Shown here piece after piece: positions 32,362-40,708 of a DNA stretch of 40,708 nt. The notes under the pieces are model-generated. The model was given only the letters and a program-made list of their open reading frames with translations. It was not told where the DNA came from and ran no database searches. Each line of letters begins with the position of its first letter. Position 1 is the stretch's first letter. Both the position numbers and the translations under genes were made by a program. The DNA comes from Przondovirus NAN33P2: the sequence record OZ035820.1; one strand, given 5' to 3'.

Positions 32362-35300
32362 ATGAGCTACGACAAGTCCAGACCTAGTGACTACGACGGT
32401 ATCTTCCAGAAGGCAGCAGACTCTCACGGAGTTAGCTATGACCTGCTGCGTAAACTGTCCTTCAACGAATCATCCTTCAACCCTAAGGCCGTCTCTAAGA
32501 CTGGACCTAAGGGCATCATGCAGTTCACCCGCAACACGGCCCGAGCGATGGGACTTAACGTTACCGATGGTGACGACGATGGGCGCTACAACCCTGAGTT
32601 AGCCATTGACGCTGGCGCTAAGCTGCTTGCGAGCCTCGTTAAGAAGTACAATGGGGATGAGCTTAAAGCGGCCCTAGCGTACAACCAAGGGGAAGGCCCA
32701 GCGGGTGCTCCCCAGCTTCAAGCGTACGACAAGGGAGACTTCGGGTCTATCTCGGAGGAAGGTCGTAACTACATGCGCAAGCTGCTGGACGTGGCCAAGA
32801 GTCCGAACTCAGGAGCACTGGAGGCGTTCGGGGGCATAACCCCAAAGGGTAAAGGGATTCCCGCAGAGGATGCCTTCAAGGGCATCTCCAAGGCTGGCAA
32901 GGTAGGTACCGAACTGCCGGAGTCCCATGGGTTCGACGTTGAAGGTGTAGCGCAGGAAGCGCCCAACACACCATACGCTAAGGACTTCTGGGAGAAGACC
33001 GGGACGACTCTCGATGAGTATAACGCTCGGTCAACCTTCTTCGGTTTCGGTGATGCTGCTGAGGCTCAGATTCAGAACTCAACACTAGGTGTTGCCTTCC
33101 GTGCTGCGCGTGCTGACGATGGGTACGATGTGTTCAAGGACACAATGACCCCGACTCGCTGGAACTCTTACGTCCCCTCCAAGGAAGACTTACAGAAGCT
33201 GCGAGACTCCGGGTTGCCGCCAAGTTACTACGGTGTGGTGACTGGTGGTGACGGTGAGAACTGGGATGCGCTCATCAAGCTGGCCAAGGATAACTTCGAG
33301 GCTGACCAAAGGGCCGCTGAGGCTGGTACTGGGGCGAAACTAGCTGCTGGTATCGTTGGTGCTGGTGTAGACCCACTCAGCTATGTACCTCTGGTCGGTG
33401 TGACCGGGAAGGGACTCAAGGTGGTCAATAAGGCCTTGCGAGTAGGTGTGCAGGCTGGAGCACTCAGTGTTGCCTCTGAAGGTATCCGTACGTCAGTCGC
33501 TGGTGGTGAAGCTCACTACGCTGATGCGGCACTTGGTGGGTTACTGTTCGGTGCTGGTATGTCAGCCCTTAGTGACGCGGTGGCCGCTGGTATCCGCAAG
33601 GCTCGTGGAGTAGACTCCGTGAATGAGTTTGCTGGACCAGCACTCCGTATGGAAGCGCGAGAGACTGCCATCAACACTGGTGGTCACGACACCTCGACAC
33701 TACCTCCAGAGAACTTCTCGTTCGAGCAGGACCACAGAGGTGTTCCGTTTGCCGACCACCCGACCGAAGAGGGAGCAGTGGTTCTTGCCAATGGTTCCAT
33801 CCTGAGTGACACCAACCCGCTCAACCCAAGGACTCAACGTGACTTCGCAGAGATTGACCCAGAGCGTGCAGCTCCCGGTATCAAACTCGGTGGGTTCACT
33901 GAGATTGGTCTGAAGACCTTAGGGTCCAAGGATGCTGGCGTTCGTGCAATCGCTCAGGACCTCGTCCGTTCTCCTACAGGTATGCAATCAGGGTCTAGTG
34001 GTAAGTTCGGTGCGACCGCTTCGGACATCCATGAGCGTCTCCATTCGACTGACCAGAGGATGTATAACCAACTGTATGACGCTGTTGACCGCGCTATGAA
34101 GGACCCAGAGTTCTCCGTAGGCGAGCAGAAGATGTCACGCAGAGCCATCCGTCAGGAAGTCTACAAGCGTGCCGCCTTGGCGATTGAACGCCCAGAGTTA
34201 CAGGCTGATTTGACCAAAGGTGAACGTGAGGTGATGGACCTGCTGAAAGAGCACTTCGACACCAAGCGTGAACTGATGGAACAGCCGGGTATCTTCGGTA
34301 ACGCTAACGCCGTGAGCATCTTCCCCGGTAGTCGCCACAAAGGTACCTACGTGCCTAACGTGTACGACAGGGCTGCTAAGCAGTTAATGACGCAGAAGCT
34401 GGGCGGACCTGAAGGACTCCAACAGGCAATCGCTCAGAGCTGGCTCACCAGTTACCGAGTGCGGCCTGAGGTCAAGGCACGTGTCGACGAGTACCTGATG
34501 GAACTTAACGGCTACAAGTCGGTAGACCAAGTGACACCTGAGGTGGTCCAGAAGCACGCCATGGATAAGGCGTACGGTATCAGTCACACAGAGGACTTCA
34601 CAGCGTCCAGCATCATTGACGACAACATCACAGGTCTGGTCGGTATCGAGAACAACTCGTTCCTTGAAGCCCGTAACATGTTCGACAGTGACCTCCCGGT
34701 TACCTTACCTGACGGGTCAACCTTCAGCGTCAACGACCTGCGGGACTTTGACATGGCACGGATTATCCCAGCGTACGACCGTCGAGTTAACGGTGATATC
34801 TCCATCATGGGAGGTAGCGGTAAGACCACTAAGCAGCTCAAGGACGAAATCATGGCGTTAGACAAGCGGGCCGAACGCAAGGGACAACTGAAGGGCGAAG
34901 TGGAAGCACTGAAGGATACCGTTAAGATTCTCACTGGTCGTGCTCGCCGTAACAACGATACAGCCTTTGAGACTGCTATGCGCTCCCTGAATGACCTAGC
35001 GTTCTTCGCTAAGAACTTCTACATGGGTCCGCAGAACCTCACAGAAATCTCTGGGATGTTGGCTAAGGGTAACGTCAAGGCAATGCTTCATGGTATCCCA
35101 ACGTTGCGGGACCTAGCGACTAGAACCTCTCCGGTGTCCGGTAGTGAACTCCGTGAACTCCATGGGGCGCTGTTCGGTAAGGAACTCGACCAGTTAATCC
35201 GTCCGGGGCGTGAGGACATCGTACAGCGAATCCGCGAGGCGTCCGATACCAGTGGAGCCATGGCTTCTGTCATTGGTACCATTAAGTTCGGTACTCAGGA

Positions 35301-36327
35301 GCTGTCTGCTCGTTCTCCTTGGACAAAGATGCTGAATGGTACGGCTAACTACATTCTGGACACTGCCCGTCAGGGTGTGCTCGGTGATGTGGCTGGTGCG
35401 GCCCTAGGCGGCAAGGGTTCAAAGTTTGGCAAAGAGAACTTCCTCAAAGCTGCCTCTATCAGTCCTGAGCAGTGGAAGGGCATCAAGCAACTCTTTGTAG
35501 ACCACGCGACTCGTGACACTAACGGTCAGTTCACCATCAAGGACAAGAAGGCTTTCAGTCAGGACCCGAGAGCGATGGACCTGTGGCGTCTTGCCGATAA
35601 GGTTGCCGACGAGACCATGCTGCGACCCCACAAGGTATCTCTTCAGGATTCCAAGGCGTACGGTGCTGGTGTCAAGATGGCTATGCAGTTCAAGAACTTC
35701 ACCATCAAGTCGCTCAACGCTAAGTTCATTAGGTCCTTCTATGAGGGCTACAAGAACAACCGCGCTATCGACATGGCGTTGACCCACATCCTGTCACTTG
35801 GTATCGCCGGGACTTACTATGCGATGCAGGCCAACGTGAAGGCTTACGGTCTCCAAGAGTCTCAACGTAAGGACTACCTGAAGAAAGCCCTGAACCCGAC
35901 CATGCTGGCCTATGCAGCGTTGACTCGAAGTTCCCACACTGGTGCCCCGCTGTCCATCGTCTCGATGATTGCAGGTGCCGCTGGGTTCCAAGATGCAAAT
36001 ATGCTGCGCTCCACCATCTTACCTAAGGAGGAACAGTTCCAGAAGAAAGAAGGAGCATCCAAAGGTCGTGCCGAGTCGGGCAACCTTGTGGGTAACTTGG
36101 GGTCTCAGGTCCCGGCTCTTGGTTACGTAGGGAACGTCATTGCAACCGCTAAGAACGCCTACGGTGTTGTTACAGCACCCAATAAGCCGACTGAGCGCGA
36201 CTACATGACTGGCCTGATGAACTCCACTAAGGAGCTTGTGCCGAACGACCCGCTGACCCAACAGCTCATCATGAAAATCTATGAGGCTAACGGAGTAACC
36301 ATCAAACAGCAGCCTAAACCCAACTAA
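32362..36327 (+). CDS. gp16: Internal virion protein D with N-terminal lytic transglycosylase domain
   Basis: 1321 aa; N-terminal SLT-like domain (GVSYDLLRK, TGPKGIMQFT, ALAYNQGEG) and long collinear similarity to recalled T7 gp16. Confidence 0.95.
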   Translation: MSYDKSRPSDYDGIFQKAADSHGVSYDLLRKLSFNESSFNPKAVSKTGPKGIMQFTRNTARAMGLNVTDGDDDGRYNPELAIDAGAKLLASLVKKYNGDELKAALAYNQGEGPAGAPQLQAYDKGDFGSISEEGRNYMRKLLDVAKSPNSGALEAFGGITPKGKGIPAEDAFKGISKAGKVGTELPESHGFDVEGVAQEAPNTPYAKDFWEKTGTTLDEYNARSTFFGFGDAAEAQIQNSTLGVAFRAARADDGYDVFKDTMTPTRWNSYVPSKEDLQKLRDSGLPPSYYGVVTGGDGENWDALIKLAKDNFEADQRAAEAGTGAKLAAGIVGAGVDPLSYVPLVGVTGKGLKVVNKALRVGVQAGALSVASEGIRTSVAGGEAHYADAALGGLLFGAGMSALSDAVAAGIRKARGVDSVNEFAGPALRMEARETAINTGGHDTSTLPPENFSFEQDHRGVPFADHPTEEGAVVLANGSILSDTNPLNPRTQRDFAEIDPERAAPGIKLGGFTEIGLKTLGSKDAGVRAIAQDLVRSPTGMQSGSSGKFGATASDIHERLHSTDQRMYNQLYDAVDRAMKDPEFSVGEQKMSRRAIRQEVYKRAALAIERPELQADLTKGEREVMDLLKEHFDTKRELMEQPGIFGNANAVSIFPGSRHKGTYVPNVYDRAAKQLMTQKLGGPEGLQQAIAQSWLTSYRVRPEVKARVDEYLMELNGYKSVDQVTPEVVQKHAMDKAYGISHTEDFTASSIIDDNITGLVGIENNSFLEARNMFDSDLPVTLPDGSTFSVNDLRDFDMARIIPAYDRRVNGDISIMGGSGKTTKQLKDEIMALDKRAERKGQLKGEVEALKDTVKILTGRARRNNDTAFETAMRSLNDLAFFAKNFYMGPQNLTEISGMLAKGNVKAMLHGIPTLRDLATRTSPVSGSELRELHGALFGKELDQLIRPGREDIVQRIREASDTSGAMASVIGTIKFGTQELSARSPWTKMLNGTANYILDTARQGVLGDVAGAALGGKGSKFGKENFLKAASISPEQWKGIKQLFVDHATRDTNGQFTIKDKKAFSQDPRAMDLWRLADKVADETMLRPHKVSLQDSKAYGAGVKMAMQFKNFTIKSLNAKFIRSFYEGYKNNRAIDMALTHILSLGIAGTYYAMQANVKAYGLQESQRKDYLKKALNPTMLAYAALTRSSHTGAPLSIVSMIAGAAGFQDANMLRSTILPKEEQFQKKEGASKGRAESGNLVGNLGSQVPALGYVGNVIATAKNAYGVVTAPNKPTERDYMTGLMNSTKELVPNDPLTQQLIMKIYEANGVTIKQQPKPN

Positions 36328-36348
36328 TTAGGTAGCACTATAGGGAGA
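36326..36348 (+). promoter_or_regulatory. Phage RNAP promoter (phi17-like)
   Basis: AATTAGGTAGCACTATAGGGAGA. Confidence 0.8.
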
Positions 36349-36389
36349 CCAGCACGGTTTCCCTTCTCATTCAACTTAAGGAGGTCACG

Positions 36390-38921
36390 ATGGACCAAGA
36401 AATTAAAACAGTCATCCAGTACCCCACAGGGTCCACTGAGTTCGACATCCCGTTCGACTACCTGTCCCGTCGCTTCGTCAGAGTGTCTCTGGTCTCTGAG
36501 GATTCCAGAAGACTGCTGAGTAACATCACGGAGTACCGCTACGTCTCCAAGACCAGAATCAAACTACTGGTTTCTACTGAAGGTTTCGACCGTGTTGAGA
36601 TTCGTCGGTTTACCTCAGCCTCTGAGCGAATTGTTGACTTCAATGATGGCTCTGTGCTGCGAGCAACAGACCTTAACGTATCACAGCTACAGTCGGCGCA
36701 TATTGCTGAAGAAGCCCGTGACGCAGCCCTGCTGGCCATGCCTCAGGACGACGCAGGTAACCTCGATGCACGCAGTCGCCGTATCGTTAACTTGGCTCCC
36801 GGTATTGACGGCACTGACGCTATCAATAAGGACCAGTTAGATTCAACGCTGGGTGAGGCTGGTGGTATCCTTTCTGATATGAAAGAAGTACAGAAGGAAA
36901 CCTATGACTACATCGAGAAGCTCGGTGACGACACTTCGATTGTCCGTGGGGTAACTTGGGTGTACAACCAAGGGTCTGCCGTTGGTGGAGAGACTACGGT
37001 CCTCGTCGATAAACCTACCCGCACACTTGCCGTTCCTTACATTGAGATTAACGGTAGTCGCCAAGAGGTTGGGTATCACTTCTCGTTTGACATTGCCACC
37101 CAGATGATTACCTTGACGGAACCACTGGTTGCCGGGGATTTCCTGATGGCAATGACCACAGAGTCCAGTGTACCTCTGGAAGACCTTCTGGCCAACCCTA
37201 CTGGTGCCTCGGCTATTGGTACCTCCGATGGTCGAAACGTTCAGGCAAACATCGACGAGCTTCGCTCCGAGTTAGACTTCCTGAAAGACACGACGGTACT
37301 TGACGTTAGACGCTTTGGTGCTGTTGGTGATGGTATTGCAGATGATTACCCAGCGTTTCAGAAAGCGTGCATAGCCGCTAGTCAACTTGGTGGGGCAATA
37401 GTCCACGTACCGACTCCAAAGGTAAAATGGAAGATTGGATTCCCGGTTTACTTGTTCGACCGCACTTGGGTCCGTGGGACAGGCATCAACTGTATTGTCG
37501 AGTTCACTGACCCGCTGTATGCTCGCAAGTCCCGCTCTGGGTTCGTCATTGGGTCTGGCTACGAGCAGAACCGCGACAAGGCTATTCAATGTCTTAACGA
37601 TGGCACTTGGGCCACTACTGGTTCGGTGGTAGATAGGAACTTCGTTGAGTTGGACCGAGGTCAGTACGTTCGCGACAATCCGAGCAAGGTACAGTCGAGA
37701 CTGTGCCGAGTGTCCGGGATGTACCTGAAGGCTTCATATCCGAATGGTGCTACCCTGAAGGGTGGTTACGCAGTGTCTGGTGCCAACGCAGTAGACTCAG
37801 AGGTATTTGATATCTGGGGCGAAGGTTGGACTGAGATTATCAACTTCGGGTCTGACGTACCACCAGCTACACCAAGCTGTCACAACCTCCATGCGTACGA
37901 CATCACGTGTGTTGCACCTAACGACTACGAGACGTACTACAGTGCAGGATTCATTGCGAACTCTACAAGTTGCTCTATTGGCCGCTTCAAGCAGCTCAGG
38001 GCAATAGCTGACGGTTCTCCTCATGGTTCCTGTGGTTCCACGAACTACACCGAGTTCTGTTCGTTCTATGACATTGATGTGCCCAATCTTGGTCGTACTG
38101 CATCTTCTGAGGGTATCCTCGTGAACAACTCTAAGGGCGCGGTGACTCGTAACATCCGTATCGGGAACGCTAAGACGTGCGTGGCTGAATACTACACCAC
38201 TGGTGCGGGTATCTTCTACGACCGTAACCATCCGAACGTGTTCGACGGTATTCACGCTAACAACTGTGACAACGCGGTAGCTCTCCGCTCCAAGTTCTCA
38301 GTTTGGAAGAACGTGACGCAGACCAACTGTACCTATCACGTCTACTTCGGGACGACCAACGCACAAGCCTGTGTGGTCAAGTTCGTACCGGACACAATCG
38401 GTGGTGGTAATAACGTAGACATTCTGGACAGGCTCCGCGATAACGTTGTGACTGGCTGGCGTGTGCGCTCGCTCCACATCCGCCCCATCGCCTACCTACT
38501 GAACGACAAGTCAGTGTTGCGTAGCTGGGATGCTGGTAAGAACATCAAGGCTGAGAACGGTGTGGGATTCCAGTGGTTATTCCCTGTACCATCTACCATG
38601 CGTGCAATCACTCAGGTCAGCCAATGGTTTACCTTCGAGGTGGGTGCAGCGTCGGCCGGGACAGAGGTCAAGGTTCAGGTTCGCCGTATGTCAGCGTACA
38701 ACGGAGACGCCAACGAGCAGCCTGTAATCCTCTTTGAGAACAGCCGCAAGGCCTCTCTGGATACCGTACAGGCTACTAACATTGTGGCCAACTCCCCGGG
38801 TCTGGTCCTGACGTCCCCTACGGATGGACTGGCTAACGCTGTGGATGTCCTCGTGAGTGTTACGGCACCGACCGTTAACTTCAACATGAAAGAAGCTCGC
38901 ATCACGTATCTGGGCGACTAA
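36390..38921 (+). CDS. gp17: Tail fiber / tailspike: T7-gp17-like N-terminal anchor fused to a right-handed beta-helix depolymerase-like domain
   Basis: 843 aa; first 150 aa resemble the recalled T7 gp17 anchor (IKTV..Y, F.IPF.YL.R.FV.V.L, RLVDF.DGS.LRA.DLNV); the C-terminal part has a pectate-lyase-type signature ([20 protein letters not shown]) and a Gly/Asn/Thr-rich repetitive composition. Confidence 0.85.
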
Positions 38922-38934
38922 CTAAGGAGACAGT

Positions 38935-40521
38935 ATGTTAAACAAATTGAATCAACCTAAAGGCTCTACAATCGGTGTGCTCAAGGATGGGCGCACCATC
39001 CAAGAGGCAATCGACGAGCTGGAGAAGATTAAGACCCGCAACGTTGACCCTGAGCGCTTCCGTGAGACGTTGACGTCAAGTGACGATGAGGTATTCGAGA
39101 AGCTGTTCGCGTGGTTGGCTACTCAGTCAGACGTTGTGGGAACCTCAAGTTCTTCCTATATCACAGCCTTACCTCGCATGATTGAGCTTAGCGGTCGTAC
39201 CTATACGTTGACTAAGCGTCACGTGCTGGACGGCAACTTCGGCATTCAGAACGGCACCATCCTGATGTCAGGTGAGGGTGAGATTATCATGGGGCTCGAC
39301 GCTGGCACTAAGACTCGGCGGCACTTCCTTAAGTATGCACACTTCGAGTACATCGGGGAAACAGACCGTAGCACCTCTCTGGTCACCATGGCGCGGTGCT
39401 TCAACTCTGTGGTTCTGTTCTGTAACTTCATAGCTGGTGGCGATGCCGCTCGCAACAGGGCTCCACGTACACGTTACGGCCTGTTCGCAGGGTCCACCAG
39501 ATGCTGGGGCTTCCAGTTAATCGGTGGTGAGTATTATGGTGGCGACTGTGCGTTGCGTGTTGGACGCGCTAACGACCACACTGGGTTGACCATTCGTCCC
39601 GGTACTGTTCACCATTCTCGCGTTATCAATATGCTATTATGTAACCCAGCGGGTGCTGAGGTGTCTGGTTGTAACATTGAACACGCAGACAATGGTGCCA
39701 TCGGCCTAGGGATTACCTCCGGTACCAATACCTCAGGTAACGCAGCCCATGGGGTTCGCATCAATGGTGTGTACTTATACAACAACGGTAACGGCTCCAG
39801 CGGCTCAAACGTAGCACCTGCGAATATTCTCATTGGTAAGGACATTCCGGGCACCGAAGGTTGGGACCGCCCGGGCGAGTTGATTACGTCAAGCCGAAAC
39901 ACCGCGCACAGTATTACTGTGTCAGAGTGCTACATTGTAAGCCCAAACACAGAGAATGCCTGGCAGGTGAACGCCCTGTACGGTGTGTCCTTCGTGGACA
40001 ACAAAGTAGGCCTCAAAGGTGACGCTACGATTCACGGTGTGTACGACGGTACGTGTGCTAACTGCTGGGCTGTTGGAAACCGAGATCAAGGCGGTAAGGT
40101 ATTCCAGTTCTCCTCTACAGCAACCAACGCGATTCTGACTACCCGCAAAGGTAAGTGGACTCCGAAGATTATCGGTGAGGGTATGGCAGGTAACACTACA
40201 CTGAGTGCTTCTGGCGGCGCATACTCTCTGGATAATGGAATGGTAACCGTATCGTGCTTCGCAGTGGTAGACACTAAGGATCCTAACATGGCTGGGAACC
40301 TGAACATCAAACTCCCGGTAGCCTGTGAGGACCAGCAGCGAGGTGGTAACGGAATTTCTCTGACTAACATCCCCGGCGTATCGAGTCCTAACGGGAGTGT
40401 TATAATCATTGGGGATACCGCTCGAATCATGCTAGGGTCTGCGAGATTGCAGCCCGAGAACATCACAACAGGCACTGCTATCCACTTCTCAGTGTCATAC
40501 CCAGCCGATGTTAAGGTATAA
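38935..40521 (+). CDS. Second tailspike / putative depolymerase lacking the T7-type anchor
   Basis: 528-aa ORF with TAAGGAG RBS between gene 17 and holin 17.5; repetitive beta-helix-like composition (GNFGIQNGTILMSGEGEI, NGAIGLGITSGTNTSGNAAHGVRINGVYLYNNGNG); no gp17-like N-terminus. Confidence 0.65.
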   Translation: MLNKLNQPKGSTIGVLKDGRTIQEAIDELEKIKTRNVDPERFRETLTSSDDEVFEKLFAWLATQSDVVGTSSSSYITALPRMIELSGRTYTLTKRHVLDGNFGIQNGTILMSGEGEIIMGLDAGTKTRRHFLKYAHFEYIGETDRSTSLVTMARCFNSVVLFCNFIAGGDAARNRAPRTRYGLFAGSTRCWGFQLIGGEYYGGDCALRVGRANDHTGLTIRPGTVHHSRVINMLLCNPAGAEVSGCNIEHADNGAIGLGITSGTNTSGNAAHGVRINGVYLYNNGNGSSGSNVAPANILIGKDIPGTEGWDRPGELITSSRNTAHSITVSECYIVSPNTENAWQVNALYGVSFVDNKVGLKGDATIHGVYDGTCANCWAVGNRDQGGKVFQFSSTATNAILTTRKGKWTPKIIGEGMAGNTTLSASGGAYSLDNGMVTVSCFAVVDTKDPNMAGNLNIKLPVACEDQQRGGNGISLTNIPGVSSPNGSVIIIGDTARIMLGSARLQPENITTGTAIHFSVSYPADVKV

Positions 40522-40530
40522 GGAGGTATC

Positions 40531-40708
40531 ATGTTGTCCCTAGACTTCAACAACGAAGTTATCAAGGCGGCTCCCATTGCGGGGGTCGCTGGGGCCGATG
40601 GCGTAGCGAGGCTCTTCTGGGGCCTCTCACTCAACGAGTGGTTCTACGTCGCGGCAATCGCCTACACAGTGGTTCAGATTGGTGCCAAGGTAGTCGATAA
40701 AATCATTG
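40531..40708 (+). CDS. gp17.5: Holin (class II), 5' portion; continues at 1..26
   Basis: MLSLDFNNE.IKAAPI...RLF.GLSLNEWFYVAAIAYTVVQIGAKVVDK matches recalled T7 gp17.5; TAAGGAGG RBS; joined product is 67 aa. Confidence 0.85.
   Translation, partial: MLSLDFNNEVIKAAPIAGVAGADGVARLFWGLSLNEWFYVAAIAYTVVQIGAKVVDKII

What the first reader, a model, noticed from the sequence alone, without database searches (positions are those of the whole stretch)
36390..40521. Dual receptor-binding module: anchored beta-helix tailspike plus a second anchor-less tailspike
Gene 17 keeps the T7-type N-terminal tail-attachment region but carries a large depolymerase-like beta-helix C-terminus. A second 528-aa beta-helix-like protein with its own RBS sits between gene 17 and the holin, where T7 has nothing. 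This layout is known from KP32-type Klebsiella phages, where the second depolymerase docks on the first. It implies two glycan specificities, probably capsule types, and is the main host-range determinant.
Basis: partly seen in the sequence, partly recalled or inferred. Interest (0 to 1): 0.7.

Follow-up and report, generated by a model that had tools for sequence, protein, structure and literature searches.

The report
Two-tailspike host-recognition module of Klebsiella phage
This is the standard two-tailspike host-recognition module of a KP32-like Klebsiella phage: the first spike almost matches a proven K57-capsule-degrading enzyme, and the second is an intact enzyme of unknown target that relatives have repeatedly cut down.

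Summary
Two adjacent + strand genes, 36390-38921 (843 aa) and 38935-40521 (528 aa), lie between internal virion protein D and the class II holin. The window is a complete, circularly permuted Przondovirus genome.

RBP1 has four parts: a T7 gp17-type anchor (Pfam E 1e-36), a branching domain, a beta-helix and a C-terminal sandwich. It is 97.4% identical to KpV767 gp46, an experimentally proven K57-specific beta-galactosidase depolymerase.

New detail: KpV767's 69-aa stub and the 155-159-aa second genes of about eight K. pneumoniae phages are in-frame deletions of this RBP2. The 157-aa forms appear to be under purifying selection.

Verdict: a new member of a well-known kind, of modest interest.

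The parts
36326..36348 (+). Phage-RNAP (T7/K11-type) promoter 23-mer upstream of gene 17
   Evidence: AATTAGGTAGCACTATAGGGAGA. It is one of 9 CACTATAGGGAGA-like sites, all on the + strand, against 0.03 expected by chance.
36390..38921 (+). RBP1 / gene 17 / type A tailspike, 843 aa
   Evidence: ORF. 97.4% aa identity to KpV767 gp46 = Dep_kpv767, a K57 beta-galactosidase. phrog_14442 tail protein, E 0.
36390..36851 (+). RBP1 residues 1-154: T7 gp17-like tail anchor, ending in a trimeric coiled neck (YadA_stalk-like, 131-159)
   Evidence: PF03906 E 1e-36 and PF05662 E 5e-7. PDB hits to T7 gp17 (7boz, 8dsp) and Kp9 gp42 (7xy1).
36882..37169 (+). RBP1 residues ~165-260: T4gp10-like branching domain, the docking site for RBP2
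   Evidence: Sequence matches to Kp9 type I fibre 7xy1 (E 6e-53), 9d80/9d83, and tailspike 7rej/7rfo residues 260-329. Latka 2019 reported HHpred T4gp10 similarity at 188-256 of the 97%-identical KpV767 protein. R224 and V227 are conserved.
37188..37289 (+). RBP1 residues 267-300: connector motif [25 protein letters not shown] plus a neck helix. This is the boundary at which catalytic modules are swapped.
   Evidence: Conservation among Przondovirus RBP1s ends here. The motif resembles the RBP2 docking peptide. The model shows a helix at 284-299.
37296..38384 (+). RBP1 residues ~303-665: right-handed beta-helix catalytic domain (predicted K57 capsule beta-galactosidase)
   Evidence: AF2 pLDDT 90.6. 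Foldseek hits K2-2 TSP at 3e-11, HK620 TSP, KP32gp38 and galacturonidases. PF12708 matches the first rung.
38457..38918 (+). RBP1 residues ~690-843: C-terminal beta-sandwich domain
   Evidence: All-beta strands at model residues 421-572, which correspond to RBP1 691-842.
38935..40521 (+). RBP2 / type B tailspike, 528 aa, no anchor
   Evidence: ORF. 96% identical in PMBT12, KA1-1 and NAN33P1, and 99.4% in NAN33P6.
38935..39027 (+). RBP2 residues 1-31: conserved docking peptide MLNKLNQPKGSTIGVLKDGRTIQEAIDELEK
   Evidence: Matches KP32gp38 (6tku) 1-35 at E 2e-9 and P560 depolymerase (7vul). 78% identical to K11 RBP2 and 71% to KP32gp38. Low pLDDT as a monomer. Its role in KP32 was shown experimentally.
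39040..39168 (+). RBP2 residues 36-78: short helical cap region specific to this RBP2 type
   Evidence: Helices at 39-42, 50-61, 65-68 and 74-77 in the model. Residues 1-67 are 100% identical to the KpV767 stub.
39175..40134 (+). RBP2 residues 81-400: right-handed beta-helix, the putative polysaccharide-degrading domain (family-invariant D214, H215, H227, E249, H250)
40141..40518 (+). RBP2 residues 403-528: C-terminal beta-sandwich domain, retained in the mini-RBP2 deletion derivatives
   Evidence: Model strands 403-524. Kept in RCIP0018, VAC71, cp46 and the phi1_1460xx forms with dN/dS about 0.1. No Pfam or PHROG family.
40531..40708 (+). Class II holin (gene 17.5), 5' part. It continues at window bases 1-26. 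Its Shine-Dalgarno sequence (40519-40527) contains the RBP2 stop codon.
   Evidence: Sequence. The identical Logan contig has a 67-aa ORF with PF10746.

Best explanation
This is the branched, two-tailspike receptor-binding apparatus of a Przondovirus (KP32-like, T7-supergroup) Klebsiella phage. Both genes are transcribed together from the phage promoter at 36326-36348.

RBP1 forms trimers. Each trimer plugs into the tail through its T7 gp17-like N-terminal anchor (residues 1-154). It then presents a T4gp10-like branching domain (about 165-260). It ends in a beta-helix enzyme (about 303-665) plus a C-terminal sandwich that cleaves K57-type capsule as a beta-galactosidase.

RBP2 has no anchor. 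Its trimers dock by their conserved N-terminal peptide (residues 1-31) onto the RBP1 branching domain. This places a second beta-helix enzyme (81-400) and a distal beta-sandwich (403-528) on every tail position.

Each spike binds and digests a different surface polysaccharide so the tail can reach the outer membrane. The pair therefore sets the host range.

Shown here: the gene layout, domain homologies, folds, and near-identity of RBP1 to a characterised K57 enzyme. Inferred from experiments on KP32, K11 and Kp9: trimer stoichiometry and peptide-to-branching-domain docking. Unknown: the substrate and chemistry (hydrolase or lyase) of RBP2.
For: - Layout and expression signals.
- Anchor: PF03906 E 1e-36, plus T7 gp17 and Kp9 gp42 structures.
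- Branching domain. R224 and V227 are conserved.
- RBP1 enzyme: 97.4% identity over all 843 residues to Dep_kpv767. That protein made halos only on K57 strains and cleaved K57 CPS hydrolytically at a beta-galactosidic bond (PMC7693772). The model is a beta-helix.
- RBP2 docking peptide: matches KP32gp38 residues 1-35 and 7vul, and is 71-78% identical to the KP32 and K11 RBP2 N-termini.
- Docking mechanism: peptide and branching domain were shown to be necessary partners in KP32 by phage engineering and ITC (PMC13352976).
- RBP2 candidate active site: a cluster of family-invariant acidic and histidine residues in the helix.
- Same layout, annotated the same way, in PMBT12, KA1-1, K11 and KP32.
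Against: - No experiment exists on this phage.
- No multimer model could be run, so docking is inferred by homology only.
- Two of the four KP32gp38 peptide residues predicted to make contacts differ here (D3N, F5L).
- RBP2 has no significant Pfam hit (Beta_helix E 0.38) and no characterised relative. Its closest homologues outside the phage group are only 35-50% identical, so enzymatic activity and substrate are unproven.
- RBP1 differs from Dep_kpv767 at 22 residues. The 73%-identical K11 RBP2 has no known host, which shows that specificity can drift within this module family.
Confidence: 0.85

Rival explanations
1. RBP2 is virion-attached and enzymatic, but its target is not a K-type capsule. 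It would be an O-antigen or another exopolysaccharide. The module would then combine capsule stripping (RBP1) with LPS recognition, rather than two capsule specificities.
For: - The best Foldseek matches are O-antigen-specific tailspikes: Det7 gp208, HK620, Sf6 and CBA120 TSP2.
- Homologous catalytic modules occur behind P22 head-binding (PF09008), Tail_spike_N (PF18668) and Ackermannviridae-type contexts such as Serratia phage IME250. These contexts often carry O-antigen tailspikes.
Against: - Fold similarity among beta-helix tailspikes does not predict the substrate. Capsule depolymerases (KP32gp38, K2-2 TSP, Depo32, K5 lyase) score nearly as well.
- Every characterised second RBP of a Przondovirus so far is capsule-specific: K21 and K2.
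Confidence: 0.2
2. RBP2 is a docked binding protein without catalytic activity, acting as an adhesin or lectin spike.
For: - No Pfam catalytic family is detected.
- Mini-RBP2 forms that lack the beta-helix are kept under purifying selection. This suggests the distal C-terminal domain has a function that does not need an enzyme.
Against: - The beta-helix carries a tight cluster of invariant D, E and H residues (D214, H215, H227, E249, H250) across homologues as low as about 26% identical. This is typical of an active site.
- The full-length gene is conserved at 88-96% across phages whose backbones have diverged.
Confidence: 0.1
3. RBP2 is not incorporated into the virion. Instead it is released at lysis as a free, soluble depolymerase that makes plaque halos and strips neighbouring cells.
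For: Soluble phage depolymerases exist in other systems (general knowledge). RBP2 has no tail anchor.
Against: - RBP2 has the conserved docking peptide.
- RBP1 has the matching branching domain.
- In KP32, deleting the peptide abolishes RBP2-dependent infection.
- Peptide and branching domain are co-inherited at 97-100% identity in KpV767, PMBT12 and the window.
Confidence: 0.05

Closest known systems
Klebsiella phage KP32 gp37/gp38 (Przondovirus 'group A' anchor-branch dual RBP system; Latka 2019, Latka 2026)
   Same: Same gene order: gp16, RBP1, RBP2, holin. RBP1 has the same T7-type anchor plus branching domain, 61% identical over residues 1-341. The RBP2 N-terminal docking peptide is the same (24 of the first 29 residues identical). 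Both proteins are beta-helix spikes.
   Different: Both catalytic modules are unrelated in sequence to those of KP32, which are K3- and K21-specific. RBP2 here has an extra helical segment (36-78) and a different C-terminal domain.
Klebsiella phage KpV767 gp46/gp47 ('group C', second RBP truncated)
   Same: RBP1 is 97.4% identical and the same length, 843 aa. gp46 is the proven K57 beta-galactosidase Dep_kpv767. The first 67 residues of RBP2 are 100% identical.
   Different: KpV767 gp47 is a 69-aa stub. It is an in-frame deletion of codons 68-526 of the window gene (1377 nt). The window phage carries the intact form.
Klebsiella phages PMBT12 (host K. oxytoca), NAN33P1, NAN33P6 and KA1-1 (host K. 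aerogenes)
   Same: Same intact RBP2 (96-99% identical). PMBT12 and the NAN33P phages also share the same RBP1.
   Different: KA1-1 has a different RBP1 catalytic part. None of these phages has a published characterisation. In GenBank, RBP2 is labelled 'hypothetical protein' or 'tail fiber protein'.
Klebsiella phage Kp9 gp42/gp43 (cryo-EM structures 7xy1/7y1c) and KP192 tspA/tspB
   Same: RBP1 residues 1-331 align to Kp9 gp42 at E 6e-141. Both follow the same type A / type B tailspike logic.
   Different: The catalytic domains differ (KL111 and K2 in Kp9/KP192).
Phage K11 (Przondovirus K11) second RBP, 570 aa
   Same: It carries a catalytic module 73% identical to the RBP1 module of the window.
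   Different: In K11 the module sits in the RBP2 position, behind a docking peptide instead of an anchor and branching domain. Its host is reported as unknown.
T7 gp17 tail fibre
   Same: Homologous N-terminal tail-attachment domain. Same genome position, before holin gene 17.5.
   Different: T7 gp17 is a non-enzymatic fibre with a coiled-coil shaft and tip. It has no branching domain, and T7 has no second RBP gene (established knowledge).
E. coli phage G7C gp66/gp63.1 and CBA120 TSP complex (T4gp10-like branched RBPs)
   Same: Same principle: one anchored spike carries T4gp10-like domains on which further spikes dock. RBP1 residues 183-254 match tailspike 7rej/7rfo residues 260-329.
   Different: These are different phage families with different docking elements. 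The Przondovirus branching domain is a shorter fragment with a single docking site.

Membership tests
Przondovirus (KP32virus) group A anchor-branch dual-RBP system | Two adjacent RBP genes interrupt synteny between internal virion protein D and the holin | tested here: met
   Gene order is gp16 (32362-36327), RBP1, RBP2, holin (40531-). KP32, K11, PMBT12 and KA1-1 have the same order.
Przondovirus (KP32virus) group A anchor-branch dual-RBP system | First RBP has a T7 gp17-like N-terminal anchor | tested here: met
   PF03906 over residues 1-154, E 1e-36, 126 bits against a cutoff of 25. PDB T7 gp17 chains match at E 1e-35.
Przondovirus (KP32virus) group A anchor-branch dual-RBP system | First RBP has a T4gp10-like branching domain after the anchor | tested here: met
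   Residues 183-260 match Kp9 gp42, 9d80/9d83 and 7rej/7rfo. Published HHpred found a T4gp10 match at 188-256 in the 97%-identical KpV767 protein. R224 and V227 are conserved.
Przondovirus (KP32virus) group A anchor-branch dual-RBP system | Second RBP lacks an anchor but starts with the conserved ~29-residue docking peptide | tested here: met
   No PF03906 hit. Residues 1-35 match KP32gp38 at E 2e-9. Alignment A4.
Przondovirus (KP32virus) group A anchor-branch dual-RBP system | Both RBPs are full length with a beta-helix (depolymerase-type) domain | tested here: met
Przondovirus (KP32virus) group A anchor-branch dual-RBP system | RBP2 physically docks on RBP1 in the virion | not testable with these tools
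   No multimer prediction or experiment was available. The claim is inferred from KP32 experiments.
Przondovirus (KP32virus) group A anchor-branch dual-RBP system | The two RBPs confer two different polysaccharide specificities | tested here: inconclusive
   The catalytic parts of RBP1 and RBP2 are unrelated in sequence. RBP1 is predicted to be K57-specific. The RBP2 substrate is unknown.
K57-specific beta-galactosidase depolymerases (Dep_kpv767 / Dep_kpv79) | High sequence identity across the catalytic central domain (Dep_kpv767 residues 309-671) | tested here: met
   97.4% identity over 843 aa, 22 substitutions. 55% identity to KpV79.
K57-specific beta-galactosidase depolymerases (Dep_kpv767 / Dep_kpv79) | Hydrolytic cleavage of K57 CPS; halos only on K57 strains | not testable with these tools
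   Shown experimentally for Dep_kpv767 only.
T7-type tail fibre (gp17) | Coiled-coil shaft and C-terminal tip domain, non-enzymatic | tested here: not met
   Only residues 1-154 are homologous to gp17. The rest is a branching domain plus a beta-helix.
Beta-helix tailspike glycanases (P22/Det7/HK620/Sf6-like) for RBP2 | Right-handed parallel beta-helix with a distal beta-sandwich | tested here: met
Beta-helix tailspike glycanases (P22/Det7/HK620/Sf6-like) for RBP2 | Identified catalytic carboxylates positioned in the substrate groove | tested here: inconclusive
   D214 and E249 (with H215, H227, H250) are family-invariant. Their geometry could not be inspected, and hydrolase versus lyase is undecided.

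The most novel reading that the evidence does not exclude
RBP2 may be the intact founder of a rare, uncharacterised depolymerase family: only about 27 clusters among 1.84 billion representatives. Its substrate could be a surface glycan of non-pneumoniae Klebsiella, Raoultella or Serratia rather than a K. pneumoniae K-type. That would make this a cross-species, dual-specificity phage. In relatives grown on K. pneumoniae, the gene has repeatedly collapsed through in-frame deletions that follow domain boundaries. Most products are a 'mini-RBP2' made of the docking peptide plus the C-terminal sandwich (the KpV767 stub keeps no C-terminal domain). This form appears to be under purifying selection, which implies that the distal domain, or occupancy of the docking site, has its own function independent of the enzyme.
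Probability: 0.3. Interest if true: 0.5.

Novelty: new member of a known kind. Interest (0 to 1): 0.3.

Why it matters
The module is the main determinant of host range, so it decides which strains this phage could be used against.

RBP1 can be assigned with good confidence to K57, a hypervirulence-associated capsule type for which near-identical enzymes protected mice. That makes the phage and the enzyme of immediate practical use.

RBP2 is an untested depolymerase type. Finding its substrate would add a new entry to the specificity catalogue for Klebsiella-group phages, and could explain isolation on K. oxytoca and K. aerogenes.

The deletion series derived from this gene is a natural experiment on which parts of a second tailspike a phage needs to keep. 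That is relevant to rational RBP swapping in engineered Przondoviruses. None of this changes the current understanding of how such modules work.

Tried and rejected
- Pfam and PHROG scans of the RBP2 C-terminal domain found no family.
- Literature searches for PMBT12, NAN33P1, NAN33P6, KA1-1, their accession numbers and the source run ERR12949719 found nothing. The hosts or K-types that would reveal the RBP2 substrate could not be obtained.
- The Kp7/Kp9 preprint did not describe the docking interface.
- Sigma-70 promoters and intrinsic terminators inside the module: none above the shuffled expectation.
- Minus-strand ORFs, for example the 182-aa ORF at 40086-40634, were rejected as shadow ORFs of a compact, all-plus-strand T7-like genome.
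- I considered that the short second-RBP genes of relatives might be a separate gene family. This was rejected because DNA alignment shows they are colinear deletion derivatives with microhomology at the junctions.
Full report
**Observation**

Each follows a strong ribosome-binding site, TAAGGAGGT at 36377-36385 and TAAGGAG at 38923-38929, and only 13 nt separate the genes.

A T7/K11-type phage promoter 23-mer, AATTAGGTAGCACTATAGGGAGA, lies at 36326-36348, directly after the stop codon of the 1321-aa internal virion protein D. Its core occurs 9 times in the window, always on the + strand, against 0.03 expected by chance. No terminator-like or sigma-70-like signal above background lies between the two genes. 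They are therefore most likely co-transcribed.

The RBP2 stop codon (40519-40521) is the first triplet of the Shine-Dalgarno sequence of the next gene. That gene starts at 40531 and runs off the window end. The window is 100% identical to a circularly permuted 40.7-kb Logan contig from run ERR12949719. In that contig this ORF is a 67-aa protein with the holin family PF10746, followed by the small terminase, Rz and the large terminase. So the window is a complete T7-supergroup phage genome, and the second gene does sit between gene 17 and the holin.

**What the phage is**

Megablast places the region in Przondovirus, the KP32-like Klebsiella podophages. Identity is 98.8% to the unannotated record Przondovirus NAN33P6 and 92% to NAN33P1 and to PMBT12 (isolated on K. 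oxytoca). Identity is 94% to KpV767 over RBP1 plus the first 200 nt of RBP2. Weaker N-terminal matches occur in about 230 Klebsiella phages.

**RBP1**

- Residues 1-154 are the T7 tail-fibre N-terminal domain (PF03906, E 1e-36). A short trimeric-stalk motif follows at 131-159.
- By sequence, residues 1-331 match the cryo-EM structure of the Kp9 type I tail fibre gp42 (7xy1/7y1c, E 6e-141). Residues 4-151 match T7 gp17.
- Residues about 183-260 match the branching modules of other branched tailspikes (9d80/9d83, and 7rej/7rfo residues 260-329).
- Latka et al. 2019 reported HHpred similarity to T4 gp10 domains at 188-256 of the KpV767 protein. That protein is 97.4% identical to this one and has the same length.
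- R224 and V227, predicted to bind the RBP2 peptide in KP32gp37, are conserved here.
- In an alignment of Przondovirus RBP1s, conservation (64-98% identity to the window RBP1) stops at about residue 290-300, after the motif [19 protein letters not shown]. This is the module-swap boundary.
- The remainder (residues 271-843) was modelled with 31 homologues, giving pLDDT 90.6 and pTM 0.84. The model shows a neck helix, a long right-handed beta-helix and a C-terminal beta-sandwich.
- Foldseek against the PDB returns Klebsiella and coliphage tailspike depolymerases and GH28-type galacturonidases: K2-2 TSP at 3e-11, then HK620, Kp7 gp52 and KP32gp38.

The whole protein differs at only 22 of 843 residues from KpV767 gp46. 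Recombinant gp46 (Dep_kpv767) gave halos only on K57 strains among the 50 K. pneumoniae strains tested (21 of them K57), blocked phage adsorption, and cleaved K57 CPS hydrolytically as a beta-galactosidase (PMC7693772). K57 specificity for the window protein is therefore a strong inference, but it has not been demonstrated.

**RBP2**

- It has no anchor domain and no significant Pfam hit.
- Its first 31-35 residues, MLNKLNQPKGSTIGVLKDGRTIQEAIDELEK, match the N-termini of KP32gp38 (6tku, the K21 depolymerase) and of the P560 depolymerase (7vul). They are 71-78% identical to the KP32 and K11 second RBPs, while the rest of the protein is unrelated to them.
- This is the 'conserved peptide' of group A KP32viruses. 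In KP32 it has been shown by phage engineering and ITC to be the docking element for the RBP1 branching domain (PMC13352976).
- An AF2 model built with 27 homologues has pLDDT 88.1 and pTM 0.81. The peptide is disordered or low-confidence in the monomer. The model then shows a small helical cap (36-78), a beta-helix (81-400) and a C-terminal beta-sandwich (403-524).
- Foldseek finds the Det7, HK620, Sf6 and CBA120 tailspikes and the Klebsiella depolymerases (best E 6e-12).
- Across the family, D214, H215, H227, E249 and H250 are invariant within the helix. I take these as the candidate active site. Hydrolase or lyase chemistry cannot be decided from this evidence.

**How rare and how characterised is RBP2?**

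Full-length close relatives exist in only four phage records: NAN33P6, NAN33P1, PMBT12 and KA1-1, the last isolated on K. aerogenes and carrying a different RBP1 enzyme. The next relative is a 38%-identical protein of Serratia phage IME250.

Searches of 5.8 billion and 1.84 billion proteins found only about 27 families with E <= 1e-10. These are mostly prophage or phage tail proteins of K. aerogenes, K. oxytoca, Raoultella and unclassified Klebsiella. The same module sits behind different adaptors: P22 head-binding, T7 anchor and Tail_spike_N.

No member has been characterised, and no paper mentions the four phages. The second specificity is therefore real in principle but unknown. A capsule of non-pneumoniae Klebsiella or an O-antigen are both possible.

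A more distant phage (large terminase 84% identical) carries the same pair of modules, with RBP1 61% and RBP2 87.5% identical. The two modules therefore travel together.

**Deletion derivatives**

KpV767 is the published example of a 'group C' phage, with a second RBP truncated to 69 aa. Its stub is an exact in-frame deletion of codons 68-526 of the window gene: 1377 nt at window 39136-40512, with a GTT junction.

About eight Przondoviruses, most recorded as isolated on K. pneumoniae (the two cp records list only sewage and river water), carry a 155-159-aa second gene: RCIP0018, VAC71, 71Y, cp43, cp46, phi1_066062, phi1_146017 and phi1_146025. This gene consists of the docking peptide fused in frame to the C-terminal domain of the window RBP2, starting at G406.

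There are three different junctions:

| Phages | Junction | Microhomology |
|---|---|---|
| RCIP0018 | KTR\|KGKW | 8 nt, ACCCGCAA |
| phi1_146017 | DEI\|LTTRKGKW | not measured (GATT by eye) |
| VAC71, cp46, phi1_146025 | VKA\|GKW | not determined |

Within the group that shares one junction, the C-terminal 116 codons show 8-14 synonymous against 4 non-synonymous differences. This gives dN/dS of 0.09-0.16, with p between 4e-6 and 3e-3 against neutrality. This suggests that the mini-protein is maintained by selection.

There are two caveats. Recombination with full-length alleles could mimic this signal. Keeping the 3' end is also forced by the holin Shine-Dalgarno sequence, which overlaps the RBP2 stop codon.

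Small stand-alone proteins with a homologous C-terminal domain also exist.

**Module shuffling**

The RBP1 catalytic module of the window occurs, at 73% identity, in the RBP2 position of K11-type phages. There it is a 570-aa protein that starts with the docking peptide. The BLASTP alignment runs into the peptide. RBP1 270-291 ([22 protein letters not shown]) aligns with RBP2 8-29 (PKGSTIGVLKDGRTIQEAIDEL). So the docking peptide resembles the connector that follows the branching domain in RBP1. This weak similarity (pairwise E 0.03) is positionally consistent and may explain why modules move easily between the two positions.

**Comparison and verdict**

Every defining feature of the KP32-type anchor-branch system that can be tested in silico is met. 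Physical docking and the second substrate are not testable here.

The finding is therefore a correct reading of a well-described architecture. RBP1 is essentially a known K57 depolymerase. RBP2 is a new, uncharacterised member. Nearly identical genomes are already public.

I rate it a new member of a known kind, with interest 0.3. The residual novelty lies in the unknown RBP2 substrate and in the selected mini-RBP2 derivatives.

Noticed in passing
window 39042-40148 and 39136-40512; L001 5046-5255, L002 4225-4704, L010-L013 301-774: The short second-RBP genes of KpV767 (69 aa) and of about eight other Przondoviruses, most isolated on K. pneumoniae (155-159 aa), are in-frame internal deletions of the window RBP2. 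There are at least four distinct junctions, at least two of them at short microhomologies. Three junctions keep the docking peptide plus exactly the C-terminal domain. Within one junction group, dN/dS is about 0.1, which suggests the mini-protein is functional.
   Followed up: yes
L006 3471-5183 (Przondovirus K11) versus window 37200-38918: K11-type phages carry the window's K57-type RBP1 catalytic module (73% identical) in the RBP2 position, behind a docking peptide. A 2026 paper states that K11 RBP2 has no known permissive host. K57-related capsule types are an obvious candidate.
   Followed up: partly
window 37188-37262 (RBP1 residues 267-291) versus 38947-39021 (RBP2 residues 5-29): The RBP2 docking peptide resembles the RBP1 connector that lies between the branching domain and the beta-helix (11 of 25 residues identical, shared pattern L..P.G(A/S)..IG...G(R)..Q..IDEL). 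This hints that RBP2 docks by mimicking RBP1's own connector, and that this motif is the recombination boundary.
   Followed up: partly
window 40141-40518: The C-terminal domain of the window RBP2 is far closer to the mini-RBP2 forms (dS 0.07-0.14) than to the full-length PMBT12 and KA1-1 genes (dS 0.87-1.1). Either there was recombination within the gene, or the window lineage is the source of the mini forms.
   Followed up: partly
window 40519-40533: The RBP2 stop codon TAA is the first triplet of the holin Shine-Dalgarno sequence (TAAGGAGGT, ATG at 40531). Any deletion in RBP2 must keep its last codons, as all observed deletions do.
   Followed up: partly
window 40531-40708 plus 1-26; whole window: The window is a complete phage genome that is circularly permuted inside the holin gene. 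It is 100% identical to Logan contig ERR12949719_2 over the overlapping 8971 bases checked. The small terminase starts at base 30 and the large terminase occupies 827-2584.
   Followed up: yes
window 2675, 3587, 10195, 12575, 14243, 23419, 24493, 29050, 36336 (+ strand): Nine CACTATAGGGAGA-like phage-RNAP promoter cores (at most 1 mismatch), all on the + strand, against 0.03 expected by chance. This looks like the phage's late and middle promoter set.
   Followed up: no
L009 1427-5590 (Logan SRR12234474 contig, 39.8 kb): A more divergent T7-like phage (large terminase 84% identical, gp16 74%) carries the same pair of catalytic modules (RBP1 61%, RBP2 87.5% identical). This suggests the two specificities are co-selected.
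   Followed up: partly
proteins P0092, P0103, P0108, P0109, P0113: These small stand-alone proteins (172-198 aa) from metagenomes carry a domain homologous to the RBP2 C-terminal sandwich (motif G.WTP..IG...AG.NTY...G.Y.KIG) behind unrelated N-termini. The domain has no Pfam family and seems to be an autonomous tail-fibre tip module.
   Followed up: partly
proteins P0090, P0091, P0094, P0097-P0101, P0110: Many short predicted proteins (45-235 aa) share only the Przondovirus RBP2 docking peptide. Truncated second RBPs may be common, though some of these may be fragments cut off at contig ends.
   Followed up: no
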